This document shows positions 3,417-36,172 of a stretch of DNA of 64,000 nucleotides, in pieces. How positions within the stretch are numbered: position 1 is the stretch's first letter; each line of letters begins with the position of its first letter. A program made the position numbers and the translations under genes. The notes beneath the pieces were generated by a model that saw only the letters and a list, made by a program, of their open reading frames with translations, made no database searches and was not told the DNA's origin. This DNA comes from Bispira polyomma (Eukaryota), in assembly GCA_965649765.1 (NCBI GenBank), contig OZ287756.1, positions 64,046,001-64,110,000 of the forward strand, in the 5' to 3' direction.

Positions 3417-3540
3417 ATGAGTGAACCAGTGTATGTATTCCACAGGAAAAGTAGAGACATGGCATGTACGTCTAAGCGCCTGTGGCTAACAAGTTTTACA
3501 CTTTCTACTATCCTTGTATTTATCTGGATATTTAGTCAAG
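3417..3540 (+). CDS. Carbohydrate sulfotransferase gene 1, exon 1 (cytoplasmic tail and type II TM anchor)
   Basis: MSEPV...RLWLTSFTLSTILVFIWIFSQ-G followed by GTAATT donor (phase 1). Conserved with 49352..49463. Confidence 0.75.
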
Positions 3541-3751: not shown

Positions 3752-3900
3752 ACTGACTTTACACATCCAAACTTGTGATTGCAAATGACAATATTAACAT
3801 AGTTGTTTAATAATCTACAGTTCTAAACTTCACTGGCTTCCTATTCACTGTAGAAAAATCCTGTTTAAAATGCATGTAACCATTTTTAAAGCTGTTGTCT
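3752..3900 (+). repeat. 149-bp direct repeat, left copy
   Basis: Matches 13166..13314 with one visible substitution. The two copies bracket the 9.3-kb insertion. Confidence 0.9.
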
Positions 3901-4739
3901 TTGATACCTGTGTATATACTATTGACTATTAATTTAGATGTAGAGATATATTAGTAGACTAGATCTTAATATGATCGTATAATGAGGGGATATGTCCCTT
4001 TATCAGATTTCAGGCAAGCATGTACACAAGACTCAAAGTATGAGTACAAAACACCACTGTAGTCGTGACTTCATCTATAGTGTCCAGAACGTCTGTGTGA
4101 TCAATCCCAAATATAGTTAGATAGCACAACATGAATAGTTCCAGAGACTTAACGAAAATTAAAATCACAAACAAAATAAAGTAAAAAATAAAAATGGCGG
4201 TGTCGCCCTTTGGACTTCAATACTAAAAGTGATATCCCAACGAAAACGGCGGGAAGACAGGGGTCAATTAGTGGAAAGTTCACCAATTAGCTTAGGGGTT
4301 AAGACCCTGGACTAAACAAATTACTGGCAGCACTGATCTAGCTAGCCCCTGCGGGTCTATCTCTCATAATAATACATACACTGTCTTTATTTAAATATTT
4401 TCTAATGGCCTTCCACAGGTTATTATTTGACAAAGTCCAACCATTAACATTTAATATTTTGGCTCCTGTGCGATATTCCATTTAGGAGCTAGTGTAAAAG
4501 TGTACCAAAATTTAACTCTGCTAGACGTTCACCATGGGGTTTGGAGGACCTCAGAAAAACTCTTCGAAATTCTCGGTGGTCAGTCAGGTTTCTCTTATTT
4601 CTTAAATGTAAAATTTTGTCGAAGACCATCTCTAACACAATTTTACAAGTCTAGGGTATTAATTTCTACTAGTTAGCTGTTTGGCTCTAACTGTTTGCAT
4701 ATCTGGAATTCTAGCACCTTCCTGAATCAATGTTTTTCC

Positions 4740-6190
4740 AATTTTAATTATAAAACTAGAAATATTATTATATTTATTAAAAACATTTCATCAATTGTAT
4801 CAATTTGGGTCCAAAATTTAATATTTTTCACAGCTTAATGCAAAAATCTACAATGCTGTCCATTGTTTTTTCAAAATCAATATAAAGCAAAATTCCTTCT
4901 AAATTGTTTTGTTTTGTGTAGTCCATCAAATTTTGTATAATTTAGATACTATCAAATATATTGCTCTTTCTAACAAGCCATGTTTAATCTTCATTGATAA
5001 TATATGGCAAAACATTTTTCAGTTGTAAAAGGGTGCCTTTAATCTAATTTTTTATCTACATTTAATAACGAGATTGGACGAAAATTTTATTTTTTTAGTC
5101 TTAGTCTTTTTTCAGTCAATGTAATAATAGCTTGACACAGCCACAGAAAGTTTACCATATTCAAATGCATAGTTTTACGAATCAGTACCACAAACTTTAG
5201 CCTAATTTACAACAAGGTGTGGCAATGGATTTTGCTCCAATTTGAGTTCAATTTCATTTAATTTTCTTATTAGTTCTGTTTCAGTGTTTGTAATTTTTTG
5301 TTTCTTTTTAGAGGTGTGATTTAGAGTAAACTTCCTGATTTCTTAGTTTATAATGTCCCACAAAATTCTATTATCTTCAATGTTTTTGTACTTCTTACTC
5401 TACACATTTATAGCATTTGAAATCTGATTTATAAAGTCCCAATCATCCAATAAAGAACAAAGAACAATTGAACTTCCAAAATCCATTACCACCTTGTTTT
5501 TTCTACTATATCTTAAAGTTTCAATATTATAATCGAATGATCAGAAAAACACCAGATGTGATATCAACCATTGTAACTATATCCTAAATATTGGTTTAGT
5601 TTAACCAGAAGTCTTACTTACATTGAATTATAGGCCATTTTTGTCGCCATGTAAACCTTTTACTAACATGGTTTAATATTCTCCAAATATCTTGCATGTC
5701 ATATTGTACTTTAATTTTGTTGAAGAATTCAAGGGACCCTGTTTAGCTAAACATTTGCATGACATTACAATCACCTCCCAGTATAATTTTTTTATCTACA
5801 TTTATATTTTGTATCTGGGAGGAAACACTGAAATCCTCCAAAATTAAACTTGATCCTTTTGCTTATTCGGGGCATATATGTTGATAACAATACAATTTGT
5901 CATTTAAAGTCAAAACACATAAAATGAACCGTCCATCTTTATCTTCATAACAACTCTAAATTTCAACATCAATAACTCTTTTTAATAATACCATTACCCC
6001 TTTGCCATGATTTGTACCATGAGCATAAATGATATAATTACCCCATTCATTTGTCCATCTGAACTCAAAAGAACTTCTTCCTTATTGTAGGTTTCGTGAA
6101 GTAATATTACATCCAAATGTGTATCTTTTATAAATCTGATAACAGATTTCTTTTTAATTTAATCATTAATACTTTGTACATTTCATGACA
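4740..6190 (-). pseudogene. Degenerate L1/Tx1-type ORF2 relic (APE and RT), duplicated copy
   Basis: Reverse complement of 25200..26650, which carries the APE and RT remnants. Boundaries approximate. Confidence 0.6.
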
Positions 6191-6890
6191 TGAATGAAAT
6201 ATCATAGGCAATTCCAATACACACAACACTAGTTTTATAAAACAATAGTTTAGTCCTGTACACAAATACACAGTACAAAATACCACATATAAGTAGACCA
6301 AAAAAATTACAACAATAATATTTTTCAACCCTAAAAGTGAGGAGAAAAACCACCAAAAAACATATAACACAAAAGCCTGTTTTAAGAGGCTTCTGAGAAC
6401 TTAAGTTCTTAATAAAAAATGTTCTCCATATATCAATAATTAAGTTTATGTTTAAATTATCTTTTTTATGTTAAATCTCAAATTCGCTTATCCTGAGATG
6501 ATTTGAAGATAGTTCTAGTCAGATGTTATAAACATTAAAGTGGCTATTTACTTAACCTTTACTATTTCAAAAATGACCACTGTATGTCTGTTTGTTGGAA
6601 GTATTGTTTTCAAAATTTTACAGTAAACATCTCTTATTGTAGTTTCTTTCGTTTATCCATAATTTTGATTACTCATGGTTATCTAATAAATTGTTCATAA
6701 GATAAATAACTATTTTGGGATATGTATTGTTCAAGAAAATGAATCTTTTTAAATTGTTGACATTTAAAAATTAAAAAAAAAAACAATTCTGCATATTTGT
6801 GCCTAACATAACCTGCTTTTGTGTATGCTGTAACTTGTCCCATTGGAATTGAATGCATCTGGCTATAGAAGTCAACAATTCACCAAAAGA

Positions 6891-8450
6891 CTATTTTAAA
6901 ACTTCATGATATTCCAATACATTCTGAATTTGGGTTTTAGGCATCCTACATACCCATCCGATACATTTAGTGGGATTTTTGCATGCACAACCAGAAAATA
7001 ACGACATCCTTTATTCTGAATTTATTAACATAATTTGAGTGTGAAAACCCCCCATATACCACTACAGTAGTCTGTTATAGGTATGATGCCAATTTCATAT
7101 AATTTGGAAAAAAAATTTAATCCAATATTTTCATATTGTTTAAATTTTGATATTAATCCACCTTGTGCTCGCCCACCAGTTACTGAGAGTTATTTTGAGT
7201 TACTTCATAATCTAGATTTTCATGCAAAGATACACCTATATACTTGTATAATTAACAATCTCAAGATTTGATGAACCGGTAACACATTTACAACAAGACT
7301 GTGGTTTTCGCTTTTACAGAAATGTACTATTTGATTTTTTGATTTGTTTATTAAGAAATGCCATTTTCACACCACTGATTCAGTTTAGTCAGTAAAAGCT
7401 GTAATTGTTCTTCGTTTAATTACAATCCCTAAGTCTTTTATAAAAATTCCAAACAATGCTGGGGACAAATTGTCACCTTGTATTAAACCTTAATTTACCA
7501 CAAACCAGTTACTAAGTGAGTTGTTCAGCTTAATACAAGACTCATAACAATTATATAAAGAGTTAAATGCACAATACAATTTACTTGTTATGTTATGGTT
7601 AAGAAGTTTGTACATTAATAAATCTTGGTTTACCCAGTCATTTTTTTTTTTTTTTTTTTTGTTTTGCATAATAATGAAAGCAACAAATATATCTCTGTTA
7701 TCATTTAATTATCTTCTAATAATTTTACTAAGTGCTAAATTGTGATTTTCACAAGATTTACCTTTGCGGAATCCATTCTGCTCATTGCATAATAAGCCTA
7801 CATTTTTGCAATAATTTATTAGAAGGTTATTCAATAATTATGAGTGTACTTTACTAACATGTGGAAGTAGCGAAACCCCTTTGTAAGAGGAAGGTGTGTA
7901 CGGATATTTTAATGAACTTTTTAAAATGGGTGTTAGAATGGCCTTTGACCAATGTGATGGGACTTTACCACAGGAAAAGTTAAACGAAAAGTTGGCAGTG
8001 TTTATCTTTGAGAACTCTATTCTAGATTTGATCAAAACCACAACCCTTGTTCGTGTTTGATGTATCAATAACCTTTCTTACCTCCTCATATGCCATATGT
8101 CACCATTTATGTATTTATTAGCATGATTGAAATTTACAGTGTTTTCCAAATTTATTTTATTATTTAACAGTGCAATGATATTGTCACCTGTTGACAATAG
8201 TAAAACAAATGTATCAGAGACTTTTTATAACGACAACATAACCAACACTTATCATTTGATTCAATCGTCATTTTATGTCATAATTTTTTAGTTCCCAAGC
8301 AACTGTATATTACTTTGTATTGGAACCAAATATATGTGTTTTCAGTGACCACATTAAAGCAGGCTATAAATATCCAAATTCAACTCATTATTAATGTGCT
8401 CACGTTACACATGTGCATACCTTTTAATTAAAAAAATACAGTGTAGTTGT
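6891..8450 (-). pseudogene. Degenerate non-LTR retrotransposon RT relic, duplicated copy
   Basis: ORF 7838..8068 contains GKVPSHWSKAILTPILK...YKGVSLL (RT N-terminal region), followed by a QNGFRKGKSC remnant. Retains about 890 bp that are missing from the source copy. Confidence 0.65.
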
Positions 8451-9240
8451 TTTGTTGTATTTTTTTCTGATGCAGATGGAAGCGAGTAGTGTGCAAATGT
8501 TATTCTGATTTTTTGTTATTTTTTAAAAGAATGTCTGAATCGTTTTTTATTTTTCCAATATATCATACTGTGTGTGATGGTATAATTAACCCCTGATGGA
8601 GGGTTGCTACCCTCGCCATCCCAGGGTCTTTCAACTTTGTTGAAAAAGGTTAAATAAAAATCATATTGGGGAAAATCAAAATTTAAAAAATCAAAAACAA
8701 CACTGGACCATTTATACTTTTCTATCTCAATTACATGATCACTTGATCAATGAGTTTCAGTGCCCTAACAGTGAAGTTGGGAGTTGATTTGGAACACAAT
8801 AAAAGAGGCAAAGTGGGGATATTAGTTTTAATGACTATATTAATCTCTAACATTTATTCATATACTGAGTAAAGGGGCCACTCTAGCATTACGAGTTTAA
8901 GTGGATGAGATAAGGTGACCTTAAATTAAGGGACCGAAAAATTAAGTTAAAGATAAGGTGACTTTAAATTGTGAACAACTTAAGGTGACCATAAAATTTC
9001 GAAAAAGTAAGGTAGCCTAAACTTTACAATGAGGCTAGCTTAAAGTGTGTAAGATTTTGAATTTAAGGTGACCTTAACTTTTTGTTTAGGTTACCCTTAA
9101 GATTTGATAACAAGTTGTGAATTAAGTTCAAGGTTTAAAAGTAGAGTGGTAAGGTGGCCCCACACTTTATTATTTAGACATTTAACAGTTGTATAATATA
9201 TAGTAAGGAATAAATGTAAATAAAGAACCCCAAAGCCCAA

Positions 9241-10252
9241 CTAGGTGGTAGTGGAGTGTGAAAGGAGAGTCTGGAAAGCCAAGACCACCTGCTGGGAAGC
9301 ATTATGGTCTTGGATTATATATTTCCAGACGCAATCCGACGTCCAGGTGCCATGACTCTGTATATCTTGAATAGGGACATTACTGTTGAAAGCGAGGGTG
9401 GCACCAGAACGTTGGAAGGTATGGAAGGTAATATTAGAATGTTGTAGTCCCAAACGCTGGAGTATGCTCGACAGGTTGGCTCGAACTCAAGTATCAGTCA
9501 ATGGTATCCAGGTATTGTTCTTCTTAAACTGGAAAAGAGGGGAGTCTCTATGGCCTGGTGTAATGGCTAGCAAGGCCCTAACTGCTGAAACTGGGCAGAG
9601 GGGGGAGGAAAGTAAGGTAGGAATTTTTATTACCTTGGCAGTATTTTTGGACTGCAGTGTCTTAGCCCACTTTATTATGAGGTGGAGGCCGGGAGGTGCG
9701 AAAATGACGTCACCTCTGGCCAATTGAACTAGGGGAGAAAAATGTGAAGCTGCATGGGGGACCAGCTTAGAGATCCTGAGGAAAGAGAAGAATGCTGTCA
9801 AATACAATGCCTTGAAAACCTGGCCCATGTACATTGTGTCACAGGATTGGATGATTTGGGTAAGAAGGGGGTATATCAATAATTCTTTTTATTTTGCCCC
9901 CGAAGGGGCTATTAAGCAAGAGTGATTTTTGGTAATACCTGATTCTGGGGTCAGAGAAAGCAGAAACGTTTAGGCCAAATAACGCCATCTTGGCTTTAAT
10001 TGCAGAAAGGTAGTTTGAAATGGAGGAAGCAGAAGCGTGGTTAACCACTAGCACTTCCAAAAATGATAATAATACAAGTGGGGAAATATGGTTGGTATTT
10101 ATATGTGCAAAACAGCAATAAGCTAGGAAAATTCTAAACATGTTGGAATAGGCTTTCTCAGTGGAGGGTCTGAAGGCCTGGTGAGCCCTGTGTGATGCTT
10201 GCGTGGCTATCTGTCCGAGGTGAGAGGGCACATCTACAATTAGATAGACCAA
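9241..10252 (-). pseudogene. DIRS-type tyrosine recombinase, disrupted
   Basis: Three ORF pieces containing RPSTEKAY, AFFSFLRISKL, KWAKT, FHTFQRSGAT, HGTWTSDCVWKYI. One frameshift and a stop after PLTDT. Confidence 0.9.
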
Positions 10253-10254
10253 TC

Positions 10255-12758
10255 TATTTTAAGCATACTATTACTGATTTTTACCCATTGTCGATTAGGG
10301 ACTAGGCTTGTAAGTTTTTTTATTTCTATCCTGGGTCAGTTTCCATCTGGACAGCAAATCTGCCACATGATTATCTCTACCCAGAATGTGAATGGTTCTT
10401 AAGCTGATGTCAACAGCAGCTATTTCCATAAAGATGTTTCTGGCTATAGCTGCGAGTGTTAAGTCTTTAGTTCTACCCGAACCCAAGATTGTTACGACTG
10501 CTGCATTATCACACTGAATTACCAGTCTTTTGCCTGCCCATAGGGACTTCCAGGCCCGTACAGCTAATAATATGTTGAGCATTTCTAAATGCACAATAAT
10601 AAAGTCAAGGTAGCCCAGGGGAAGGGAATACTCATATACTTGGTCATTACACCTGCCCCCGAGTCCTTCAAGACAAGCATCCAATTGGATGCAGTCAGTG
10701 GTTGGGTCATGCTCGAAGAATGCAGTTCCATTGAACACAGGCAGAAATTTATTGAACCAGTTGATATCTTGTCTAAATTCAGTTGTGAGTGTGATTTTTT
10801 TGCTATTACCTGCTACTCTAAGGACGTCTAACATACGGTTTATGAAGACATGTGATACTCTGACACACTTTGAAACGTACAGTAGTTTACCTAGAAGTGA
10901 TTGGAGTTCCCGTTTGGTACAACTTGGTTTTTTCTGCCAATCTTTAACTAGGGCGATGGTTTCTGCTAGTTTTTCTTGGGGCAGTGATACAGTAAAGTTT
11001 TCCGTGTCTACCAAGACCCCGAGACATGTAACTTTTGTACCAGGATATACTAGTTTCTTTTCACTTATTGCAAAACCTAGTTCTTGTAGCAAGTGGTGCA
11101 ATGTATTAAATGAACGTCTGCTCTCTTGGGCGTTATCGTAACCGATTACGTCGTCTATGTAGTTAGTGACGTCATAACCCTGGGATTTCATAATGTATCT
11201 GACGCCATTGCTGAGGTGTTGAAAAATGGCCCTCCCATGACGAAATCCAAAGGGGAGGCAAGAGTCCACATAGTATTTGTCAAATTTGAGGCCTAGCAGG
11301 TGGAAGTCAGCGGGGTCCATCTTTACGTGACGGAACGCCCGACTGATGTCAATCTTATATATGTGAGTACCACGACCCAGGCGCCGAATTTTGCTGGTTA
11401 CTGTGTCAATCGTGGGAAGTGTGAGTACAAAAGGTGTGTTTAAATATCTGTCCTTTGCTACAGTAGTGTTACTGACTCACCGTGTGAATAACTTAAGTCA
11501 ATAATAACCCGCCTGTGAGAGGCCCCCAGTTTTTCCCTCATCATAAATGGGGACACATGGAGGTTCTGTATGGGAGCATTATCAAACGGCCCTAACATAG
11601 CCCCAAATTTAATTTCCTCTTTCAAATAGGCCTCAATGTCACTAGGGAAATCTACCGCTGATCTGTGGTTTTGTTCTACATGGGAGAGAGGACTGTCTCG
11701 CTTAATGTCCATGGGGAAACCATATCTGACTAAAAAGGGTAGTTGGGAATCCCAATAATTATATTTTTTGAGGTATTTTTCCCAGACATCAGGTTTAAGT
11801 TCTGACTTGATCTCAATTTGAGGGCCTATAAAGTTGGGACATTTAGCTGAACTAATAATAGTATGTAACTCAATTAATGTAGCCTGTGAGGTAACCCCTT
11901 TATCTGACTGAAGAACCTCAATTTCACCTAATGGAATAAAGCCATACTTGTCTGTTGTCTGTGAATTCCATTGCTGGAATATGGGGACATTATGGGCATC
12001 CCTTATAAGGTCCCTGTGTTTAGGTCTAAGTTGGAGTTCTAGATCATATTTGTCAGCCTCCAGTGTACTTGTTTTACCTATGGGAGTTTTGGGTGAGCCC
12101 TTGCTTTTGCCTTCGCTGAGGCCTTTTGTTTCTTTCTCAGTATCAAGAGGTTTTGTTATGGGAATATTCCCATTGTCAATTACACCATGCCCCACAGAAA
12201 GAGGGGAAACCTATTGTATGTGGGGACAAAATCTTTGGCACCTTCTCGCAGGTGTGAAACAGGAGGAGGAGGCTTTGTATAATAATGTGTTTTCACACCT
12301 TTTCCCCCATCCCCATTATTGCAAGTTTTTGTTGCTTTTCCCATACTGACAGATTTCACACCAATTATAGGGGAAGGGACAATGGTACGTGATTTACCCC
12401 TAGCAACCACTTTGATTACCTGTTTGCTGACAGAGCTGTCAGACTGTCCTGAAAGGTTGGTAAAACATGCATGGTTAATACTTTTTTGTGAAACAGTACT
12501 GTTTTTCATTGTTACATTACACATAGGAAATTTCACATTTTGGTTAGTATCTGAGTCGTGTGCACTGGGGGACATATGTTTTCCCTGATTTTGTTTTGAT
12601 TTACCATTTTTTAAAATGTCCGCACAGGATTTTTTTTTTAACCGAGCCCAGTCTGTCCTCCAGTGCGCACTGGCTTGAATGTTAGCAAAAATGTTATATA
12701 CAATTCTACCATGAAATTGTTTTTCACTATACCTCTCAGTACAAAGTTCATTGTTCAT
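10255..12758 (-). pseudogene. DIRS-type pol: N-terminal extension, reverse transcriptase, RNase H (frameshifted)
   Basis: SPFMMREK..RRVIIDLS, LPFGFRHG, NYIDD, LQSLLGKL, LDACLEG, HLEMLN, CDNAAVV, NHVADLLSR. Confidence 0.9.
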
Positions 12759-13165
12759 TGTTTTATCATTGAAAACTATGTTTTCACTCCACCTCGTGCT
12801 TTTGTCAGAATAACCTTAATCACTATGACTTGATAAGGGCACTGCATTGCTGCAGTGCCTTACTCGTTTTTTGCATTTGTTCTGCAATCCTTTGCAGGGT
12901 GGGGAAACGACCGCCCATTCAATATACAATTACTACACACATGCAGATAAGTGGTTCTTTTAGTTTCATGGTCCCCTTTTTGGGGGCAAGTACACTTTTG
13001 GAAGAACCTGCATGGAGTACCCTTGTCATGACTTTTCCTGGAGGGGCCTTGTGTTTGACTAGAGTTTTGGCTGGAATTAATTACCCGCCTAATTCTGTCG
13101 AGTTTATGGGACTCGTCCCATGACACCTTCCCCTCTTCCATTTTACAGGATAGAACTGAAATAAA

Positions 13166-13314
13166 ACTGACTTTACACATCCAAACTTGTGATTGCAAAT
13201 GACAATATTAAAATAGTTGTTTAATAATCTACAGTTCTAAACTTCACTGGCTTCCTATTCACTGTAGAAAAATCCTGTTTAAAATGCATGTAACCATTTT
13301 TAAAGCTGTTGTCT
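13166..13314 (+). repeat. 149-bp direct repeat, right copy
   Basis: Matches 3752..3900. Confidence 0.9.
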
Positions 13315-14190: not shown

Positions 14191-14262
14191 AGTCCCAATG
14201 GCTGTCAGAAGAACACAAGATCTGGCGGTTACTGAATTTCTCAGTACATGAAACCTTTACAG
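14191..14262 (+). CDS. Carbohydrate sulfotransferase gene 1, exon 2 (stem, 72 bp)
   Basis: CACAG acceptor and GTGACA donor, phase 1-1, reading ESQWLSEEHKIWRLLNFSVHETFT. Length and splice sites conserved at 50651..50722. Confidence 0.75.
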
Positions 14263-15819
14263 GTGACAGTTTATCTATATGTTTTGGCTCCTCTACTACA
14301 TCTATACAAAGTGTATTCTTACATAAGATTGTACTTTAACTTGATTTTAATGTTGCTATCAGGAATGTATATTGTGACTAGCAATTGTACTAATTTAGAG
14401 GATTTTACATAAATATTTTGACACTGGATCAAATAACACAAAGCAAAAGAAACGATAAAACAATGCTTTTCTATTGAATAGTTTAATTTTTATTTTATGC
14501 ACAAGCAGACACTTGGGTCCACATAATGAAATATTCCATTCATCTGACCAATTTATTTATGTCACCGGGAACGTTCAGATAACATTATGATTCTACACAT
14601 AGTAAATGGTTTCAGAACATAAAAAGCAACAAATCGTACACAGACTTTAACCATTAAAAATATTTTAACATTGAAAATGTTATTATACTTCTATTTTAAG
14701 AATAATATTTAATGGATATTGTTGTGTTTCAGAATGTATAATTTTCAATTTGACATTGCTCAAATATAGCATAGAAATTTTACTAAAATGGTGATAAAAA
14801 AGTAATTGCAATAACAGTCGTATAAAAGAAAAAATGTTGATCACTTATCTTTTTTTTTTTCTTCTTTTTTTTTTGTGAGCACAATAAGTTTATTTCCATT
14901 TATATATATACAGAGTGTAAAGATTTTACATACATTTTATACAAAATATAAAATGTAAATATACTAACTGCATTTCCTCTTCATTTTTGTAAAGAATTTA
15001 TTACTTTTTATTTTTATTTTCTTTCTCTACAATTTATCGTAATTTATAGTTGGAATACTGTTTAAGTGAGCATATAGATCTAAACCTAGAAGTTTGAATT
15101 CACATGTTGTGAATATTATATTAATATTAGATGAATTGATATACTAGCTACACAATACAACACCTAAAAGAAATCAGCCCAGCATAGATTTAACAAGAGC
15201 TCATTTACAAGTCAGTAGCTTTTCATTTATAAACTCTTTATGATGTAATTTAGGAGACCACTTACTCTATGATAGTTTGAAACAGTGTCAATTAGGTCCA
15301 TAAGTTGACATTGGTAATCGTCACCAATCAGCCAATTTTTTTAAAAAAATAAACATTTATTATATAAAAGTTATACAAAATGTACGTACAAACTATTCCC
15401 AAAAAAGTTTAGGGTTACAGTACTGGGTAACATCAACAAAACTGACATAGAACTTTATGAAATGCACGAACCACATAATTAACAGGCCATGTATATTACA
15501 TAGATTAATACATAGTACCAGAGTACATTATTAAATTACATCAGTACATCAATTCACACATTAGGTTAATAAACCCAACTCCATAACTCAAATCATACCA
15601 GCACAGATTATCGAATTACAAGCTAGCCACATAGCTTGGATTAATATGTAAAAAAGCATACATTATCATATGTTAAGGAAACAACACAGATTAATGTGTA
15701 TAGCAAGAGCACATTATCATAGCTTGGATCATTCAGGCCAAATGAAAACATTTAGAGACAACATGTTTGACAATATTATATATCACATATTTATCTAATA
15801 GTTACAATCATGCATATAT

Positions 15820-18800
15820 TTAATCCTTATTCATCAGGCTACTGAATTTGGACCATTGTTTAGTAAACATTTCTTCTTTGCAGTTTAATTGTGCTAACAG
15901 AAGTTGTTCAGTGTACGTCTTTCTTAGTTTTGGTTTTAACAAGTGTAATTGTGGATTTTTATTAACACGGGAGCATTGGAAAATGAAGGCCTTAGTAACT
16001 GTACAAATGGTGTTTCTGGGCAGGAAAGTTTCATCATATTCTAAATATCCCAAAATAATGTTGTATGAGTTTATGTCCAAAGTAACATGTATTGACTCAT
16101 AAATCCAATGTTGTAAAGAATTCCAAAGGTCTATTACAACAGGACATTCAGCAAATAGGTGAATTATTGTTTCAGGCAAACTTTTACAGAAAGAACAAAT
16201 AGGAGATCCTTTGATAGACATATCATACAGTAATTTATTGGTGCCTAGTATTCTGTGAATTATTCTATATTGAAGCCATATTAGAAAGTTATCCTTTAAG
16301 GTTTTAACATTATTGAATTGGCTGTATATAGGCTTCGTTCCTCTTTGACTTTGCAGCAGAATTGAAAACTGATAGGGGTATATTGGCCTTTCCATAATTA
16401 GGTTTTGATTATTATTGCCAAATCTTTCTATTAATAAAGAAACTCTTTTTTTAATTTTATAGTATTCTAAAAAGTTTATCGAAACAAGATTGTATTTTTG
16501 CTTCAAATCGTTCTGTGACAAAAAACTACCATTTCTATCAAACATGTCACCAATAACACAAATTCTATTTTTGTACCAATTTGCAATAGGTGGAATATTA
16601 CCAAGTTTCACATTATACCAAAGTGGTATGGAGATAATATGATCATTCCTAATCTTTTCACCTTTATTTACTAAATCACACCAGGCCAATATGACATCCT
16701 TCCAAAATTGGTTCTTTATTCTGCCACATAATAATTTCAACCAGCCACGACCAAAATCCATTAGCTTACTTACTGGTGAAACAAGTTTTTCAAACAGTAC
16801 TGCCCAGTCTGGAGAATTAGATAGTAATAGTTTTCTGATCCAAGTACATTTTAGAGATTTTATAAATATTCAACATTATTCATTTGTAGACCCCCCTCTA
16901 GATAGTCTTTACATACTAAATCTCTTTTAATTTTATAAGGTTTTCCATTCCACAGAAATTTAAATAACATTGTATTGATTTCCTGTAAAATCTTGATATC
17001 AGGTGAGGGTATTGATAAAAATAAATGGGTAAACTTAGATAACAAAAGAGTTTTCATGATTGTTACTTTGCCAAGTGGTGTTAGATGCTTTTTTTCCCAT
17101 TGTTTAATAGTTTCCTTTATTTTTAAAACAGCTTTTTCATAGTTTTTAGAGGGGATTTTCTCAATGTCAACATGAAACAAGATACCCAACAGAGAGAATT
17201 CATAGTTTTAGATGTATTCATTTTTAAGCCGGATATATTACCAAAAATTTCTAAAACATTTAATGATGCCTGCAGAGATTTTTCAGAACCATCAAGAATT
17301 AGGGTTGTGTCATCAGCATATTGAGTAATTTTGAATTCTTTACCTTCAATAGTGACCCCTTTAATGTTTATGTTATATTTGATTAATAGGTATAGTATAT
17401 ATGCACATATTATAAATAGATTAGGTGATACAGGATCTCCTTGCTTACAGCCTCTTTTTATTTTTATAAATTCAGAAGTAAATCCAGATTGTAAAACAGT
17501 TGCATAAATGTCAGCATTAAACAATTTTATCCACTTTACAAAATTATCACCAAAGCCTAAGTAGTTAAGTACATTATACAAAAATTTCCAAGACACACAG
17601 TCAAATGCTTTTTCAAAATCTATCATCATTAATAAACCATCTAACTGCTTTATATCTGTACACTCCATTATATCATAAATTAAACATGTACTTTCTCCTA
17701 TGAAGCGCCCTTGTATGAAACCTGTTTGGGAAGGAAGTATAATTTTAGTGAGTATCGATTTTATTCTGGTGGCTAATACCTTAGATGCCAATTTATATAT
17801 GACACTCAATAGAGATATCGGTCGCCAATTTTTTAATTGATCCCTAGGTTTGTTTCCTTTTGGTATACAGTTTATTATACATTGTCTCATACTATAAGGT
17901 AATTTACCAGTTTCATAACTTTCATGTAATGCTCTCAGTACAAAAAATTTTATCTTCACCCAAAAAACTTTATAAAATTCTACTGGAAGACCATCAATAC
18001 CAGGGGTTTTGTTATTATTCATGGTTTTTATGGCAGTTTCTATTTCAGTGATTTTGATTGGATCACCTAAAATTCTGCAGTTTGAAATATCTAGGTTTGT
18101 AATCTCAGTGGAATTCAACATTTCATATAAATTCACATTTTCAAGACTATCATCACGGCTTGTAAAAAGGGTAGCATAAAACTCCTTAACATAAGACAGT
18201 ATTTCTTTTTGATCTGTTATATAACTACCATTATCCAAATGTATTCTTTTTATTGTTTTGTTAACATAGTTATGTTGTTCTAGGCCTAGAAAATATTTTG
18301 TTGATTTTTCACCTTCTGATAGATCTTGCACTCTGGCTCTAACCTTTTGGCCTGGCATTTTTTGATCTCGTATTATATTCAATTCAAGCCTTTTTTGGTC
18401 TAAAATAGAAAAATTATTTGCATCATTGCTGTTTTCCAGCTGCTGTATATCTTCAACTAATAATTTTTCTTTTATGCAGTCTTTTCTTTTTAGATTTGAA
18501 GCAAATTTTACAGTAGCTCCTCTAATTCCTAACAACATAACTTCCAAGAAGGTTCTAATTGATATAGTAAACTGAACATTCTCATTCTCAGGGTTATCAA
18601 TATATTCAGGACTATATACGGGTACCATATACTGTAATCTTATGTTTTCTATGACCTTGTTTATTGTTTTGATATAATCATGGTTTTGTAAGAGACTGCA
18701 GTTTAGAGACCATATTCCTTTACCTCTTGTAAATCTATTAATTACAATACTAAGTTCTAGGATCGAGTGGTCACTTCGATATCCTGGCTTTATTTTACAA

Positions 18801-19465
18801 GTATCAACAAGGTCTATCAGTGGGTTTGACAAGATAAAATAATCTAAACGGGCTTGCTTAAAGGGGTTTTTTTTTCTCCATGTATACGTTTTACTTTCTG
18901 GTTGAAGATGTCTAAAGACGTCTATTAAGTTGTACATACTTATAGTTTCCTTAAAGACCTCTCTTGCCTTTGGCTTATTAATGCTGACATAATTGCACGA
19001 GTCCAAATTGGGATTCAAAACTAGATTAAAATCTCCACATACTACTAAGTGTGTTTCAGTATTATCTTGTATAAATTCCCTTACCTTGCGAAAAAATGAT
19101 GGATTGTCTGAATTTGGAGCATACAGATTGATGAGGCGCATTGATATATCATTTAGATCTAAATCTAACACAATTAGGTTCCCTGATAAATCTTTTTGTA
19201 CATTTTTAATTTTGTATTCAAAGGTATTTTTAAGCAATATTGCTACACCGCGAGAACTTGTCTTAATACAATGTACAATAGTCTCACATTTTGAATAATT
19301 ACGCAAAATATTTTCATCTTTTGAAGTAAGGTGGGTATCCTGTAAACAAATTATGTTACAATTAGATTTGATCAAATACTGAGCAACATCATATCTTTTC
19401 TTTTTATCCTGTATCCCTTGAACATTTGCTGATGACACATTTAGATTATCACTAGAAGAAACCAT
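15820..19465 (-). pseudogene. L1/Tx1 ORF2 (APE endonuclease, RT, zf-RVT), broken by frameshifts near 17190 and 16860
   Basis: NVQG, QDTH, GDFN, SDH (APE); NWRPISLL, DFEKAFD, GCKQGDPVSP, QYADD (RT); CSFC...HLFAEC (zinc finger). Spread over ORFs 17123..19465, 16860..17189 and 15820..16761. Confidence 0.92.
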
Positions 19466-20593
19466 TTGACATGTTTCTCAATTTGACACATTTTAGAACA
19501 ATACCACAGTACAGAGTCCTGTTTAAGATGTTAGAAGTAAAAGTACATGCATATTTTATAGTCATCAAATAATGATATCTTAGGAGTATGTAACAGCTAA
19601 GTACAAAAATGGGAACCGTTTGGTACACACAACAATATACAGAACAAAAATGAAACAAGAAAAAAAAAGTAAATACAAAAAATATATACATGACAGCGAT
19701 AGCTGGCAGTATCTACGGTTTTTGATGTGGATAAGCACCTTGTTAAATGTTTGTTGTATAAACCATTGTGGCATCATTATGTTATATCTGATATATCTAC
19801 ATGTATATATTTTTGGAACAATAATACACATATACATATATATACCTAAACATACTTTTTAGTGGACTTATGATTTACTTACCTATTAGTGTATTCTGTA
19901 ATAAATTCTCTTTTACTGTATTAATCCAATAGAAATACTCCATATCAAACTACATAACTATGTCACTTGGTTTAACACTATCCATGCATTTATCATCATA
20001 CAAGTAAGTACATGTTTATCTGATGAAACTCCAAATCTTGAAAATAATATAAAAAATAGTGGTTTCAAAAATATTTGTGAGTATTACTTTTTGGAAGAAT
20101 AAAACATGCATCAGCATATCCTACAAACTAGACTAAAAACACACAAAACACACTGCCGAAAGTGTGACACACTGTGACTTTTAATATCATTAAATGTGTA
20201 CTTGTTTGTGTATTGGGTGACACAAAGAAAACCTATTGGTATTTGCAACCCACTTTTCATTGAGATTTGTTCTTGGAAATTTGTATAAAAAAAATATATA
20301 ATCATAGGGAGTCTGTGTATTTGACCCCTTTTAGGGTTGATAGTAAAGGTTTACAAGGTGGGAGAATGGACAGAGGCTTTAGTCTAATTAAATCTACACA
20401 TTTAAAGATACATTATATAATTTGTATTGAGTCTACATTTATGATACACACATTTGGGATTATATATAATCTAACATTAAAAGGAGACTTTTAAATAATA
20501 AATTTTAGTTTATCATAAATACATTATACATATATAAATACCATTATTGTCATATCAGTTATTCAAAGAGTTTTTTCTGTGAGTGTAAAAGGT

Positions 20594-21847
20594 CTAGTTG
20601 GTTTTAATTTCCTCCCTAATTCTCCCCATAATTAATTTCCCCATAATGTTTTTGCCTTTCCATTTAGCCTGGTCCCACAGTTCAGAGTCTCGAAGTGAGA
20701 ACCTACATCCCCAAAAGTTATCGGTTGGGCTAGCCTCTGCGATAACAGTGCTTCCTGTTTTTAGAAGTGCTTTTGCTAGTGCATCGTTTTGGGTGAATTT
20801 GGATTTCAAACCTTTATATGCTATTTCTTCAGACCTTTCCAACCACACTCCCTTATTATATCCATGTATCTGTTTTCCTAGTCTTTTCTGCTTAACTGGG
20901 TCTTGCTCCTGTACTAATAAGGTCACTGATTCTTGGTCGTCAAATACTCTGGCCTTTTCTATCATCAGATATTGTTCAATACAGTTAAATAATTCACCGT
21001 TCACTTTAAACTTACATGGGTGGTGGTTTGAAAGTGGGCTATCACAACCAAAGAAAGCTGTGATTTCATTTTGAGACGGCGTGCAGATTGAAGTGGGTTG
21101 AAGAACAGATGGGAGTTTCCCAATGTACTCAACTGTGAATTTTTCTCCATTAAGTATCAGGAGATCCCCGACTAATTTAACGTTAGGTCTATGTCTGGGG
21201 TTTGAGGGGTTCTGTAGGTGCTTCAGTGCAGCTCTGTATATGGGATACAGACGCCTTCTATTCTGATCTGTTTCTAGTTGAAAGTCGTCTGCTGTGGTTA
21301 CCCTACTTGCATTGTACTGTAAGTTGCGTAGGCTTGTGATTTTTATCTTATCTTTAAAATGGTGCACTTTTGCTAGAATGGGTCTTGTTTTTCCTGGAAT
21401 TTTCGGTCCTACTCTGTGAACCCTTTCGAATGTTCTGTCATTTACACAATATATCAAGGGTTTCAGCAAGTTAACGAGAGTGTCTTCACAACATTCTTGC
21501 GCACTTTCTTGGATGCCAAAGAAACGGAGGTTATTTTTTCTTTGGTGGGTTTTGTTTTTGAGACGTCTTCTTCGTAAGGCAGTATTTTCTTTTTGTAAGG
21601 ATTCTACCTGTTCAGATAAGGTCTTCATGGACGGAATGAAGACACCCTGTTCTAGTTTATCAAACCGTTTACTGAGGGGCTCTATAATGTCATGATTTGA
21701 TTCCTTAATTTCCTCTTTAAGAGTGTCAACTGCTTTCTTTATGGAAGTATTGATTAAGGACAAAATTTCACTGGAGGTGTAATTGGCCACTGGGCTTTTG
21801 TCTACTTCCTCGAATTTCCTCACTTTACTTGTTACTGGGGTTGACAT
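20594..21847 (-). CDS. L1/Tx1 ORF1p: coiled coil + RRM/CTD (Transposase_22-like) + C-terminal NADAR domain
   Basis: Open 417 aa. L1-type RRM motifs RKNNLRFFGIQE and FERVHRVG...RPILAKV. NADAR motifs FFGCDSPLSNHH, EQYLMIEKA, PVKQKRLG, KFTQN, LLKTG, EASPTDNFWG, GKNIMG. Confidence 0.9.
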   Translation of the reverse strand: MSTPVTSKVRKFEEVDKSPVANYTSSEILSLINTSIKKAVDTLKEEIKESNHDIIEPLSKRFDKLEQGVFIPSMKTLSEQVESLQKENTALRRRRLKNKTHQRKNNLRFFGIQESAQECCEDTLVNLLKPLIYCVNDRTFERVHRVGPKIPGKTRPILAKVHHFKDKIKITSLRNLQYNASRVTTADDFQLETDQNRRRLYPIYRAALKHLQNPSNPRHRPNVKLVGDLLILNGEKFTVEYIGKLPSVLQPTSICTPSQNEITAFFGCDSPLSNHHPCKFKVNGELFNCIEQYLMIEKARVFDDQESVTLLVQEQDPVKQKRLGKQIHGYNKGVWLERSEEIAYKGLKSKFTQNDALAKALLKTGSTVIAEASPTDNFWGCRFSLRDSELWDQAKWKGKNIMGKLIMGRIREEIKTN

Positions 21848-22058
21848 GTTTGTTTACACTTGTGCACAGTACAGTGTATGGCTGATCACTTATCTTTTAC
21901 TATTTTTATTGTGTACATTGTTGTAGACATCTACCCAGAAATAATTTTATTTATATACATTTTAACAGTGGAACAATATTCGTTTACCATTGCAAATATT
22001 GTACTACATGATATAATTATGTCATACCTCTTTTTATTGTTGTCTCTTGGCCATTTAG

Positions 22059-22656
22059 ATGATAATGAATTCATTCAAAAAGCCAGAGCCGAGAGGTTAC
22101 AAACATTTTGTAAGAAGTGGAGTGCTGACCATACAAACAATAAGTCTACACTAGCTGAGAAGAATGTAATGATTGATGACACAAACAAGATCTTATTATT
22201 GTCCATTCCCAAAACAGGCTGTACAGTGTGGAGGTGGACCATCTACAACAGCACAGCCAAAGTGACAACAGATTTTGAAGATGGTCAAAAGCTCCATTTT
22301 ATTCACACCAAAAGTTTTCTGCGGTCTCAAGGCTTCCGAATATTCCTCAAGATGCCAGAACAAGAAAAGACTAAACTGCTAGACCATTACTTTACGATTT
22401 TAACTGTGAGACATCCTCTCGGCAGACTAGAATCGGCCTATGTTGATAAGTTTGTTAACCAAAGAAGTGAAAATGAAAATTTTCGGGCAGCAGTAATACA
22501 ACACAAGATGAATAGTGAAGGTCAGTTGGATAACTCCAAAGTAGACCTGACTATAAATGTTACTTTTGAGGACTTCTTGTCATATGTTCTGGTCAGCTTT
22601 AATGGTCACTGGAACAGTGTCATGAATCTAGCCATGCCTTGTATGGTAAACTACAA
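22059..22656 (+). CDS. Carbohydrate sulfotransferase gene 1, exon 3 (catalytic domain)
   Basis: TTTAG acceptor and GTAAGT donor. PAPS-binding motifs SIPKTGCTVWR (5'-PSB) and VRHPLGRLESAY (3'-PB), plus TFEDF, HW and PC motifs of the Sulfotransfer_2 family. Confidence 0.9.
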
Positions 22657-23481
22657 GTAAGTAATCCTCTATTTTACCACTAATAAGTAGGGTTGTTGGC
22701 AATATCTTTTAAAACTGTGTTAAGTATTTGAATCCCAAAGTGTAAAAATCTATTGTTCTTGCCTCTAATGTTAGAACTGCTGGCGACATGTGGTCTTTGT
22801 GTCAGTTATTCTACAGCTTTAATGGACATTCAACAAAAAATTTAGAAAATATGTAGAGGAATGTAATATAAAGCTGATTTGAAAGTAGAGATAAACACCA
22901 ACAGTTAACGTGTTTTACACATAATCACAATATGAGTATACTTATTTCTATTATGAATAACGATTTACAAATATACACCAATTGAGTCCTACATTTTGTG
23001 GAATGTTACTGCTATTCCTTGGCATAAATATTTTCCTATTACAAAAGATTGCATCTCATCTAAACCATAGTGTTATTTGTGACCTATTTTTAGTGATACA
23101 GTATTTATCATTTCTCTGGTTAGTTCTTGAATTGGCAGTAATATTTCTAAGTCACTGTCTCTTTTTTAAAAATCTCTTAAAGGTTAAATTACTACTGCAC
23201 TAAACTCATTTTACATACTTTCGGCAAATTGTTTGTGTTACTGACCTGTAATCTTTTCCAGTGTTCCCTAAACATTAAAAAAATGTAATAGACTACTAGG
23301 GCTTATCTTTTGGTGTCCACTTTTACTACATTGCTCAACGGGTAAACAAACTGGTATTTATAACCCCTTTATGTTCAGGTAATTTTTTGTGATGTACTAT
23401 TGATTTATACAAATCCTAAACCACTCTTTCAAGTGAAAATTTTATCTAATGCTCTGTGTTGTTTAAATATGAATATTCCAG

Positions 23482-23779
23482 ATATATCTCCAAGACAGAG
23501 ACCTTGAATAACGACCTTGAATACATTATAAGATCCAGACTTTCTGGAAATGGGCAACCTCAATCCTTCAACACCAACCGAGACTCCAGTCCAATTACCC
23601 TCCACCAAGGCAGACTTTTGACTGTGTTCTCTGAGCTTAAAGATCCACAGAAGTGGATTAAGCAATTAATGGATATTTTCCAGGATGACATGAACATGTT
23701 TGGATATTCATATTCAGTACAGAAAGGCAAGGTGTATGCACACTGCACTTCATATTACAAAGAGACTATTTGTATTTGA
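23482..23779 (+). CDS. Carbohydrate sulfotransferase gene 1, exon 4
   Basis: TCCAG acceptor. Splicing gives PCMVNYKYISKTETLNNDLEYII and DIFQDDMNMFGY. The four exons sum to 1092 nt (363 aa plus stop). Confidence 0.88.
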
Positions 23780-23889: not shown

Positions 23890-25199
23890 TGCAAAGATAA
23901 AAATGATCATAAAAGATGGATTTCAATACATACGTTGATTTGTCAGAGGTATTTTGTATGTAGTGTCAATTTTCATGGTAACCTGCTCTTCTGCAGAGAC
24001 AACCTGGGTAAACGTTTAATGAACTTGATGTTTCTGTTATGTAATTGACTTACTTAGCAATAACCACGATCTGTGTTTGGCCTGAACCTGGGATAAAAAC
24101 ATGGTGATTCACTGTAGTAGGGTCCTGTTCCCATGGCATTCTGTGGGTACTACAAGAACAACCTAATGCAGATTAAATTTCATTTAGGTTTTTCTGGTTG
24201 GTTGAAATGGTTGTCTAATCACTCAGTTGCCATTTCATCAGTTCTAGTTCATGTATGCTTCTAGGGATTCAATTACAAGGTCGGATATTATCAATCTTAA
24301 TACATGTAGTTAAAACAAGTAACTTTTTTACTTAATACAAATTTTGATTTGAAGTCACAAATACTAGAATGAATATTTTCAAAAGTTTGAAACAGACATA
24401 CATTATAGATACTTCCCTTTCTGGAACATATACTGCCTTCAAAATGAAAAACTAAATTAAGTAACGACATTGTTTTTTAAAATAAAGGTATTGACTCTTT
24501 TGGTGAATTGTTGACTTCTATAGCCAGATGCATTCAATTCCAATGGGACAAAGTTACAGCATACACAAAAGCAGGTTATGTTAGGCACAAATGTGCAGAA
24601 TTGTTTTTTTTTTAATTTTTAAATGTCAACAATTTAAAAAGATTCATTTTCCCGAACAATACTTATCCCAAAATAGTTATTTATCTTTATGAACAATTTA
24701 TTAGATAACCATGAGTAATCAAAATTATGGATAAACGAAAGAAACTACAATAAGAGATGTTTACTGTAAAATTTTTAAAACAGTACTTCCAACAAACAGA
24801 CATACAGTTGTCATTTTTGAAATAGTAAAGGTTAAGTAAATAGCCACTTTAATGTTTATAACATCTGACTAGAACTATCTTCAAATCATCTCAGGATAAG
24901 CGAATTTGAGATTTAACATAAAAAAGATAATTTAAACATAAACTTAATTATTGATATATGGAGAACATTTTTTATTAAGAACTTAAGTTCTCAGAAGCCT
25001 CTTAAAACAGGCTTTTGTGTTATATGTTTTTTGGTGGTTTTTCTCCTCACTTTTAGGGTTGAAAAATATTATTGTTGTAATTTTTTTGGTCTACTTATAT
25101 GTGGTATTTTGTACTGTGTATTTGTGTACAGGACTAAATTATTGTTTTATAAAACTAGTGTTGTGTGTATTGGAATTGCCTATGACATTTCATTCATGT

Positions 25200-26650
25200 C
25201 ATGAAATGTACAAAGTATTAATGATTAAATTAAAAAGAAATCTGTTATCAGATTTATAAAAGATACACATTTGGATGTAATATTACTTCATGAAACCTAC
25301 AATAAGGAAGAAGTTCTTTTGAGTTCAGATGGACAAATGAATGGGGTAATTATATCATTTATGCTCATGGTACAAATCATGGCAAAGGGGTAATGGTATT
25401 ATTAAAAAGAGTTATTGATGTTGAAATTTAGAGTTGTTATGAAGATAAAGATGGACGGTTCATTTTATGCGTTTTAACTTTAAATGACAAATTATATTGT
25501 TATCAACATACATGCCCCGGATAAGCAAAAGGATCAAGTTTAATTTTGAAGGATTTCAGTGTTTCCTCCCAGATACAAAATATAAATGTAGATAAAAAAA
25601 TTATACTGGGAGGTGATTGTAATGTCATGCAAATGTTTAGCTAAACAGGGTCCCTTGAATTCTTCAACAAAATTAAAGTACAATATGACATGCAAGATAT
25701 TTGGAGACTATTAAACCATGTTAGTAAAGGGTTTACATGGCGACAAAAATGGCCTATAATTCAATGTAAGTAAGACTTCTGGTTAAACTAAACCAATATT
25801 TAGGATATAGTTACAATGGTTGATATCACATATGGTGTTTTTCTGATCATTCGATTATAATAATTGAAACTTTAAGATATAGTAGAAAAAACAAGGTGGT
25901 AATGGATTTTGGAAGTTCAATTGTTCTTTGTTCTTTATTGGATGATTGGGACTTTATAAATCAGATTTCAAATGCTATAAATGTGTAGAGTAAGAAGTAC
26001 AAAAACATTGAAGATAATAGAATTTTGTGGGACATTATAAACTAAGAAATCAGGAAGTTTACTCTAAATCAAACCTCTAAAAAGAAACAAAAAATTACAA
26101 ACACTGAAACAGAACTAATAAGAAAATTAAATGAAATTGAACTCAAATTGGAGCAAAATCCATTGCCACACCTTGTTGTAAATTAGGCTAAAGTTTGTGG
26201 TACTGATTCGTAAAACTATGCATTTGAATATGGTAAACTTTCTGTGGCTGTGTCAAGCTATTATTACATTGACTGAAAAAAGACTAAGACTAAAAAAATA
26301 AAATTTTCGTCCAATCTCGTTATTAAATGTAGATAAAAAATTAGATTAAAGGCACCCTTTTACAACTGAAAAATGTTTTGCCATATATTATCAATGAAGA
26401 TTAAACATGGCTTGTTAGAAAGAGCAATATATTTGATAGTATCTAAATTATACAAAATTTGATGGACTACACAAAACAAAACAATTTAGAAGGAATTTTG
26501 CTTTATATTGATTTTGAAAAAACAATGGACAGCATTGTAGATTTTTGCATTAAGCTGTGAAAAATATTAAATTTTGGACCCAAATTGATACAATGGATGA
26601 AATGTTTTTAATAAATATAATAATATTTCTAGTTTTATAATTAAAATTGG
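25200..26650 (+). pseudogene. Degenerate L1/Tx1-type ORF2 relic (APE and RT)
   Basis: Manual translation gives DVILLHET, EWGNYIIYAHGTNHGKGV, GGDCN and NFRPISLLNVDKK, with many stops. Boundaries approximate. Confidence 0.7.
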
Positions 26651-34683: not shown

Positions 34684-34750
34684 TATAATAATAATAATGC
34701 ATTTTTAACACGCTTTATTGATGCCAGGCATCTTCTAAAGCGCAACAGAC
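34684..34750 (-). mobile_element. Very short L2-type LINE 3' tail insertion
   Basis: Matches 46869-46932. Reverse complement of the tail at 63920-63990. Confidence 0.7.
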
Positions 34751-35945: not shown

Positions 35946-36172
35946 CAATCTCTCAGCCATTGATTTGCCTAGAAACATATTACAAAGCAACGCAGTACTA
36001 TGCTCTAGCATGTCATATGACATGTATTTTGGGCTTTAATGAGACTATAAATCTTCCACATTCTTATTCTGGTCTATGTTACAGGAATCTTTGTAATTTA
36101 TAAATTTATATACATATACTTATGCTGTGATCTTTGAGCAATTATTACATAATTTATTTCATTATAATAACA

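What the first reader, a model, noticed from the sequence alone, without database searches (positions are those of the whole stretch)
3901..13165. 9.3-kb intronic insertion is a circularly permuted, inverted copy of the downstream region: signature of a reinserted DNA circle
Seen: read on the minus strand, the insertion runs source 28196 to 31572, joins directly to 24496 (junction at 6890/6891, no evident microhomology) and continues to 27488. The two ends of the source interval are therefore fused, and the copy is opened inside the DIRS 5' region with 27489-28195 missing. The downstream copy is the source, because its LINE reading frame continues past 31572. The insertion keeps about 2.0 kb (11009-13027) and about 0.9 kb (7302-8188) that the source later lost. 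Known: permuted order is the diagnostic of duplication via circular intermediates, as in the cattle KIT colour-sidedness alleles. Inference: a roughly 10-kb eccDNA reintegrated about 11 kb upstream. The circle ends are not the DIRS termini, so this is not normal DIRS transposition.
Basis: partly seen in the sequence, partly recalled or inferred. Interest (0 to 1): 0.75.

Follow-up and report, generated by a model that had tools for sequence, protein, structure and literature searches.

The report
Reshuffled inverted copy inside an intron
A 9.3-kb stretch of old transposon debris was copied, flipped and reshuffled into a nearby gene intron in one DNA-repair accident, possibly through a DNA circle, which is a clean example of a known kind of rearrangement rather than a new one.

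Summary
3901-13158 is an inverted copy of 24496-31572 in rotated order, with 27489-28195 (707 bp) missing. The blocks differ from the source evenly (97 of 6334 bases, 1.5%; heterogeneity p=0.34), which fits one event. It lies in intron 1 of an intact sulfotransferase gene, and the downstream copy is the donor locus.

These point to DNA synthesis during insertion. They make the structure a textbook 'cycle of templated insertions / local 3-jump', which needs no circle.

Rotated order favours a ~10-kb circle only moderately. The 707-bp loss and 149-bp duplication are far larger than the 1-27 bp scars of resolved human circle cases, and 93% source coverage fails a published 95% filter. Best reading: a circle captured with a replicative step (0.5). 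Rival: circle-free template switching (0.3). The retroelement is Ngaro-like and a passenger. Known kind; modest interest.

The parts
3459..3540 (+). Host sulfotransferase gene, coding exon 1
   Evidence: splices in frame to 349 codons; the paralogue has the same exon
3752..3900 (+). Left copy of the 149-bp host duplication; its CR1-type remnant is cut at 3899
   Evidence: 148 of 149 identical to 13166-13314; alignment to another CR1-type copy stops at 3899
3901..6890 (-). Block a: inverted copy of 24496-27487 (decayed L1/Tx1-type LINE plus the 5' non-coding part of the YR element); junction J1 has 1-nt microhomology
   Evidence: 39 of 2989 substitutions; EN/RT similarity
6890..6891 (.). Junction J2: source ends 24496 and 31572 fused (the putative circle junction)
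   Evidence: no exact microhomology; not a back-splice; found once in the window
6891..13158 (-). Block b: inverted copy of 28196-31572, including 7302-8188 and 11009-13023 that the downstream locus lacks; carries the gag end, pol and YR of an Ngaro-like element, then LINE fragments
   Evidence: 58 of 3345 substitutions; Pfam RVT_1 and integrase SAM-like hits
13159..13165 (+). 7-nt A-rich filler at junction J3
   Evidence: matches neither flank; no convincing local template
13166..13314 (+). Right copy of the 149-bp host duplication, continuous with the CR1-type remnant to 13693
14191..23779 (+). Host gene exons 2-4 (14191-14262, 22059-22656, 23482-23779), now lying between the two inverted copies
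   Evidence: Sulfotransfer_2 E=9e-19
24496..31572 (+). Donor locus (about 9,968 bp when copied; now 7,077 bp because of two deletions at 28341-28344 and 31145-31163)
27489..28195 (+). 707-bp donor segment absent from the copy (start and first part of gag)
   Evidence: open frame 27463-28383; similarity to another gag spans 27712-28260
28159..28195 (.). Hairpin whose outermost pair abuts the 28195/28196 breakpoint
   Evidence: -9.2 kcal/mol, 1 of 4 such hairpins in 8.1 kb; z about -2.6

Best explanation
One germline repair event. (1) About 10.0 kb just downstream of a sulfotransferase gene had its two ends (24496 and 31572) joined bluntly, giving a circle. (2) A break in intron 1, 11 kb upstream, engaged that DNA at 27488 through a single matching base. 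(3) About 93% of the circle was taken up in inverted orientation, ending at the foot of a hairpin at 28195. (4) Seven bases were added, and the end rejoined the host 149 bp behind the departure point, so those 149 bp were duplicated. Shown: the block order, three junctions, the host duplication, the direction, even divergence and an intact gene model. Inferred: the circle, the synthesis step and the hairpin's role. The Ngaro-like element and the LINE fragments are passengers. The likely effect is neutral: intron 1 grew from about 1.2 to 10.7 kb, and exons 2-4 now lie between long inverted repeats.
For: Same-strand rotated order with the two opening points only 7% of the span apart. A toy circle-free two-tract model gives this geometry in 0.2-0.7% of draws; the likelihood ratio is 16-57 against random jumps, or 2.6-9 against a slip-conditioned null, if the mean loss is 200-1500 bp. 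J2 is blunt, like the circle junctions of PMC7450558. Divergence is even over blocks (chi-square p=0.34; a versus b p=0.18) and over windows (dispersion p=0.18-0.73). The 149-bp copies (1 of 149) are compatible with the same age (p=0.33). Sequential histories over these segments need two separate insertions at one junction, or four steps with reused breakpoints. The host duplication, filler and hairpin foot (chance 0.006-0.08 over six ends, post hoc) fit a synthesis step.
Against: The 707-bp loss and 149-bp host gain far exceed the 1-27 bp scars in resolved human circle duplications. Coverage of 92.9% fails the 95% filter of preprint 10.64898/2026.09.03.749254, where 79 of 80 intrachromosomal rotated insertions were in the same orientation as their source. 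If losses at opening average 50 bp or less, the likelihood ratio turns strongly against a circle. An inverted, local, multi-segment insertion with host re-duplication is what template switching is invoked for. No circle, reads or second haplotype could be examined, and the null models are my own assumptions.
Confidence: 0.5

Rival explanations
1. Circle-free serial template switching (FoSTeS/MMBIR; a local 3-jump that re-replicates the host). A broken fork at 3900 invades at 27488 and copies 3 kb backwards. It slips about 10 kb back to 31572, copies 6.3 kb until the hairpin at 28195, and returns 149 bp behind its start.
For: The same three junctions with no extra intermediate. It meets the 'cycle' definition and the local n-jump description (PMC7025897). 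Duplications at the inserting site, blunt or short-homology junctions and small fillers are reported for replicative complex insertions (PMC5120786). The insert lies only 11 kb from the donor and is inverted. The hairpin lies where a polymerase copying the plus strand would meet it.
Against: It does not explain why the second tract ends just short of where the first began: 2.5-3.8% one-sided and 5-7% two-sided even given the slip. There is almost no microhomology at any junction and no excess of substitutions near the junctions (4-6 per end).
Confidence: 0.3
2. Linear donor or two-chromatid capture. Either a tandem duplication of 24496-31572 on another haplotype supplied J2, or two chromatids or homologues broke 149 bp apart and fragments from one were ligated between them. 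The 1.5% difference and both large deletions could then be allelic, and the event much younger than it looks.
For: Tandem duplication plus deletion is the named false positive for this pattern (PMC7188851). Double cuts on one or two chromatids give circles, tandem duplications and local inverted insertions in mouse germ cells (10.1101/2020.06.23.168138). Both large deletions are in the downstream copy.
Against: No tandem copy or third junction copy lies in the window. It needs an extra, unseen haplotype. The inverted insertions in that study were 16-709 bp.
Confidence: 0.13
3. Assembly artefact: the other haplotype, or a chimeric read, was stitched into the intron.
For: 1.5% divergence with large indels could be allelic in a heterozygous invertebrate (recalled, not tested). 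No reads were available.
Against: The differences are biological in type (63 transitions to 34 transversions, p=2e-10 against random error; 13 indels). Three homology-free junctions, a filler and a 149-bp duplication with a mismatch are not what overlap-based joining gives (inference). Removing the insert and one 149-bp copy restores a 1,236-bp intron against 1,187 bp in the paralogue.
Confidence: 0.05
4. The YR retroelement's own machinery, or an RNA circle, moved the segment.
For: The segment is centred on a gag-pol-YR element, and such elements are thought to integrate from circular DNA (recalled).
Against: J2 lies in flanking LINE debris, kilobases from the element. The opening points lie inside the element. 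Both copies share a stop in the YR frame, so it predates the copy. pN/pS is 0.69, not different from neutral (7 synonymous, 16 non-synonymous; p=0.46, low power). There are no back-splice signals and no motif shared by the six breakpoints (by eye).
Confidence: 0.02

Closest known systems
Duplications via circular DNA intermediates: human cSDPs (PMC7450558), human eccDNA-mediated duplications (PMC7188851), tilapia vasa (PMC3245284), cattle KIT alleles (not read; seen only as cited in PMC7450558 and PMC3245284)
   Same: Same-strand rotated block order, donor ends fused without homology, breakpoints in unrelated repeats, non-tandem copy. The tilapia case also has a donor interval missing from the copy.
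   Different: Smaller (10 kb against 22-3918 kb in PMC7450558) and closer (11 kb against 0.09-58 Mb). The 707-bp loss and 149-bp host duplication contrast with 1-27 bp scars. No gene is carried. Here the gap is shown to be old donor sequence; in tilapia it was speculated to be a later insertion.
Polymorphic AB->BA insertions in human long-read data (preprint 10.64898/2026.09.03.749254)
   Same: Rotated order, same chromosome, near the source, intronic.
   Different: Inverted (1 of 80 there). Source span is above their 5-kb limit, coverage is 92.9% against their 95% filter, and there is no microhomology of 5 bp or more.
Cycles of templated insertions and local n-jumps (PCAWG, PMC7025897); complex chromosomal insertions (PMC5120786)
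   Same: A string of copied segments inserted at one site, a return that re-replicates host sequence, two inverted junctions and one non-inverted junction on one derivative, and a small filler.
   Different: An old, apparently germline event in an invertebrate-type genome rather than a tumour or patient. The two templates are near-adjacent and in rotated order, which those classes do not require.
Ngaro-type tyrosine-recombinase retrotransposons (PMC3783388)
   Same: gag, RT-RNase H and YR in order, with no methyltransferase domain.
   Different: No terminal repeats were found, both copies are broken, and the element was carried passively.

Membership tests
Circular-intermediate duplication | Blocks in cyclically shifted order on one strand | tested here: met
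Circular-intermediate duplication | Donor ends fused with 0-2 bp homology | tested here: met
   J2 has no exact microhomology; criterion
Circular-intermediate duplication | Single opening point with near-complete coverage (1-27 bp scars; 95% filter) | tested here: not met
   707 bp missing, 92.9% coverage. It works like this class but is not filed under the strict definition.
Circular-intermediate duplication | Only micro-rearrangements at the acceptor site | tested here: not met
   149-bp host duplication plus 7-nt filler; the body of Table 2 of PMC7450558 was not visible
Circular-intermediate duplication | No tandem duplicate that supplies the junction | tested here: inconclusive
   none in the 64-kb window; other haplotypes and the rest of the genome unseen
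Circular-intermediate duplication | Junctions supported by reads | not testable with these tools
   no reads
Cycle of templated insertions / local 3-jump | String of duplicated templates inserted at one locus | tested here: met
   blocks a and b each occur twice
Cycle of templated insertions / local 3-jump | Returns to the host and re-replicates a host segment | tested here: met
   3752-3900 = 13166-13314; the CR1-type remnant is cut on the left and continuous on the right
Cycle of templated insertions / local 3-jump | Clustered local breakpoints, mixed inverted and non-inverted junctions, on one derivative | tested here: met
   three new adjacencies within 28 kb of one assembled sequence
Cycle of templated insertions / local 3-jump | Equal copy gain and single-event timing | tested here: inconclusive
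   even divergence fits, but the test has limited power and read depth was unavailable
DIRS1-like retrotransposon | Methyltransferase domain after RNase H | tested here: not met
   the YR frame starts within about 40 bp of the RT-RH frame's end; 0 of 12 long relatives, picked from 120 listed of 530 hits, had a Dam hit
DIRS1-like retrotransposon | Inverted terminal repeats | tested here: not met
   none found
Ngaro retrotransposon | gag, RT-RH, YR without methyltransferase | tested here: met
   definition
Ngaro retrotransposon | A-B-A-B split direct repeats | tested here: inconclusive
   not found; the ends may be eroded
Ngaro retrotransposon | Placement in the Ngaro RT clade | not tested
   no named references among the 120 listed hits
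YR retrotransposition product | Insert bounded by the element's termini | tested here: not met
   J2 lies in LINE debris; J1 and J3 lie inside the element

The most novel reading that the evidence does not exclude
A 10-kb circle released from this locus was not ligated back. A broken fork in the same locus copied it as a template until a hairpin stopped synthesis. Germline circle 'reinsertions' of this type would then be recognisable by a roughly 150-bp host re-duplication and a truncation at a hairpin foot, would be dropped by current 95%-coverage screens, and would multiply dead retroelements without transposition.
Probability: 0.2. Interest if true: 0.55.

Novelty: new member of a known kind. 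Interest (0 to 1): 0.35.

Why it matters
It is a nucleotide-resolved case, in what looks like an invertebrate germline, sitting on the border between two explanations usually kept apart: circle reinsertion and serial template switching. It shows that rotated order alone should not be called diagnostic when hundreds of bases are missing and the host site is re-duplicated. Locally it enlarges an intron ninefold and leaves about 6.3 kb of 98.5%-identical inverted sequence around three exons, which could invite a gene-breaking inversion (inference). No gene was duplicated and no function is evident.

Tried and rejected
Separate events for the two blocks: no divergence difference, though power is limited with 97 substitutions. 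The longest identical run, 522 bp, has permutation p=0.026; I treat it as post hoc and do not claim gene conversion.

The gap as a later insertion in the donor: rejected at its right end, because gag is continuous. Its left end is non-coding and could not be tested that way.

Back-splice or circular RNA origin: no donor-acceptor pair. Shared recombinase-like motif at the six breakpoints: none by eye.

Second stem-loop ending at 27488: not beyond chance (z=-0.99; 31 of 200 shuffles fold as well).

Template for the 7-nt filler: only 10-mers far away. Template for the 19-nt filler in the donor: only an 11-mer.

Terminal repeats of the YR element: none. The paralogous intron as an empty site: it does not align across the insertion point, so only its length is informative. 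Polarising changes with relatives: 2 of 3 positions were informative, one derived in each copy, which is uninformative for mechanism.

Host taxon: not determined; all protein hits were unnamed. Literature searches for invertebrate or inverted local cases returned 3 and 5 papers, none relevant by listing; this is too thin to claim absence. Unchecked: reads, other haplotypes, the rest of the genome, metagenome and viral collections, and the bioRxiv supplements (Table S2 of the 2026 preprint may list distances and host duplications).
Full report
OBSERVATION. 3901-6890 is the reverse complement of 24496-27487 (the T at 3900/27488 is shared). 6891-7301 matches 31164-31572, 8189-11008 matches 28341-31144, and 13024-13158 matches 28196-28344. 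Read on the minus strand, the insert runs 28196 to 31572, then 24496 to 27488, and 27489-28195 (707 bp) is absent. Adding block a (2,993), the gap (707) and block b as kept in the copy (6,268) gives 9,968 bp, of which the insert covers 92.9%.

WHAT WAS MISSED. The insert is flanked by a 149-bp direct repeat, 3752-3900 and 13166-13314, with one mismatch. An old CR1-type RT remnant begins inside this repeat. On the right it runs on to 13693; on the left it stops at 3899. So this is host sequence duplicated at the insertion site. Junction J1 (3900/3901) has 1 nt of microhomology. J2 (6890/6891) has none exact, though 3 of the 4 preceding bases also match the 31572 side. J3 has a 7-nt filler at 13159-13165.

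HOST AND DIRECTION. Exons 3459-3540, 14191-14262, 22059-22656 and 23482-23779 splice with GT-AG to 349 open codons with a Sulfotransfer_2 domain. A paralogue at 49352 onward has the same four exons. Intron 1 is now 10,650 bp; it would be 1,236 bp without the insert and one repeat copy, against 1,187 bp in the paralogue. The downstream copy is the donor locus. Its LINE-type frame continues past 31572 (family named from recalled motifs). Its gag-like frame is open through the gap and across 28195/28196, with similarity to another gag over 27712-28260. The two segments kept only by the insert are deletions downstream, one with 4-nt microhomology and one with a filler of about 19 nt. The RT frame and 4 of 4 relatives run across the first. 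Whether these deletions came after the event or were already on another allele cannot be told.

ONE EVENT. Substitutions are 39 of 2989, 7 of 409, 47 of 2802 and 4 of 134 (chi-square p=0.34; block a versus the rest p=0.18). In total 97 of 6334 differ, or 1.53% (95% CI 1.24-1.87). Windows of 200-800 bp are not overdispersed (p=0.18-0.73); the longest identical run (522 bp) has p=0.026, post hoc. The 149-bp copies (1 of 149) fit the same age (p=0.33). Transitions outnumber transversions 63 to 34, with 14 at CpG and 13 indels, so the differences are biological in type. A search over signed segments found three new adjacencies. The shortest sequential routes were two separate insertions at one junction, or four deletion, inversion and tandem-duplication steps with reused breakpoints (limited to the observed segments).

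THE PASSENGER ELEMENT. It has gag, RT-RNase H and YR frames. YR follows RNase H directly, and 0 of 12 long relatives (picked from 120 listed of 530 hits) carry a Dam-type domain. By the definition in PMC3783388 (passages) that is Ngaro-like, not DIRS1-like. No terminal repeats were found, and no tree was made. Both copies share a stop in the YR frame, and each has private lesions. Copy-versus-donor pN/pS is 0.69, not different from neutral (p=0.46, 23 changes). J2 lies in flanking LINE debris, there is no back-splice signal, and the six breakpoints share no evident motif. The element did not move itself.

HAIRPIN. The break at 28195/28196 abuts the outermost pair of a hairpin at 28159-28195 (-9.2 kcal/mol; z about -2.6; 5 and 3 of 200 shuffles fold as well on the two strands). 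Four non-overlapping hairpins of -9 or better lie in 8.1 kb. The chance that one of six ends sits at such a foot is 0.006-0.017 exactly, or 0.03-0.08 with 2 nt of slack. This is post hoc and only suggestive. It fits a polymerase stall on single-stranded template or trimming of a resected end. A second stem-loop ending at 27488 is not significant.

CIRCLE OR NOT. For a circle: a toy circle-free model (second tract at a random place, strand and length) gives same-strand, rotated order with a gap of 7% or less in 0.2-0.7% of draws. Even given a 10-kb back-slip, the tract ends within 707 bp of the entry point in 2.5-7%. At the observed gap the likelihood ratio for a circle is 16-57 (random null) or 2.6-9 (slip-conditioned) if losses at opening average 200-1500 bp. 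It is about 1 or less at 100 bp and far below 1 at 50 bp or less. These nulls are my assumptions. Against a simple circle: resolved human cases show 1-27 bp scars and lie 0.09-58 Mb from the donor (PMC7450558; passages and sections 7 and 9; Table 2 body not visible). The 2026 preprint 10.64898/2026.09.03.749254 (abstract, sections 7 and 29; supplements closed) requires 95% coverage and finds 79 of 80 in the source's orientation. PMC7025897 (passages and section 9) defines 'cycles' as strings of copied segments that return and re-replicate host sequence, and local n-jumps as their local form; this structure meets that description. PMC5120786 (passages) reports duplications at inserting sites with blunt, short-homology or filler junctions. 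PMC7188851 (parts 1-3 of 4) names tandem duplication plus deletion as the false positive; none is in the window. PMC3245284 (passages) has a similar gap, there speculated to be a later insertion. 10.1101/2020.06.23.168138 (passages) shows meiotic double cuts yielding circles and local inverted insertions. 10.1101/2022.06.22.497135 (part 1 of 3) argues the general case. The cattle KIT paper was not read; it was seen only as cited in PMC7450558 and PMC3245284.

VERDICT. Real, probably a single event, and well resolved. Most likely a 10-kb circle was taken up with a synthesis step (0.5). Circle-free template switching (0.3), a linear or two-chromatid donor (0.13), misassembly (0.05) and element-driven movement (0.02) remain. 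It works like a circular-intermediate duplication but fails the strict near-complete-opening test, and it meets the descriptive definition of a templated-insertion cycle. The host taxon was not determined, because all protein hits were unnamed; the repeat content suggests a marine invertebrate (inference). Two searches for invertebrate or inverted local cases gave 3 and 5 papers, none relevant by listing, which is too thin to claim a first. New member of a known kind; interest 0.35.

Noticed in passing
window ~14851-21882, minus strand (target duplication at 14838 and 21883): Full-length Tx1/L1-type LINE in intron 2 of the same gene, with a 13-16 nt target duplication and a poly(A) tail. ORF1 (20594-21853) carries a NADAR domain (E=1e-37), as do 6 of 7 relatives. 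NADAR in Tx1 ORF1 is already noted for Crassostrea gigas in PMC12477816 (passages). ORF1 and ORF2 are about 1.1 kb apart, and ORF2 is broken.
   Followed up: partly
window 49352-~53900: Paralogous sulfotransferase gene about 46 kb downstream, same four exons, 359 open codons, about 79% identical.
   Followed up: partly
window 44000-48490: Second YR retroelement with an internal inversion (gag plus, about 45000-47480 minus, RT and YR plus) and a 69-76 bp inverted near-identical copy (47106-47181 against 47734-47809). Possibly another template-switch scar.
   Followed up: partly
window 34687-34748 and 46871-46932: A 62-bp piece of a CR1-type 3' region, 100% identical at two places 12 kb apart; both copies lie beside or inside YR elements.
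   Followed up: no
window 35000-40281, minus strand: Third, distantly related gag-pol-YR element (about 24-39% protein identity), frameshifted, with no terminal repeats found.
   Followed up: partly
window 30259-30436 (and 8950-9082): Five copies of a 24-nt near-palindromic motif just 3' of the YR frame; possibly part of the element's terminal structure.
   Followed up: no
window 3752-3900 / 13166-13314: The host duplication (149 bp) is close to nucleosome-core and Okazaki-fragment length (recalled values); one case, may be coincidence.
   Followed up: no
window 25180-31150: The Ngaro-like element appears nested in a decayed L1-type LINE: EN and RT pieces at 25381-26608 and a zf-RVT-like piece at 30984-31142.
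   Followed up: partly
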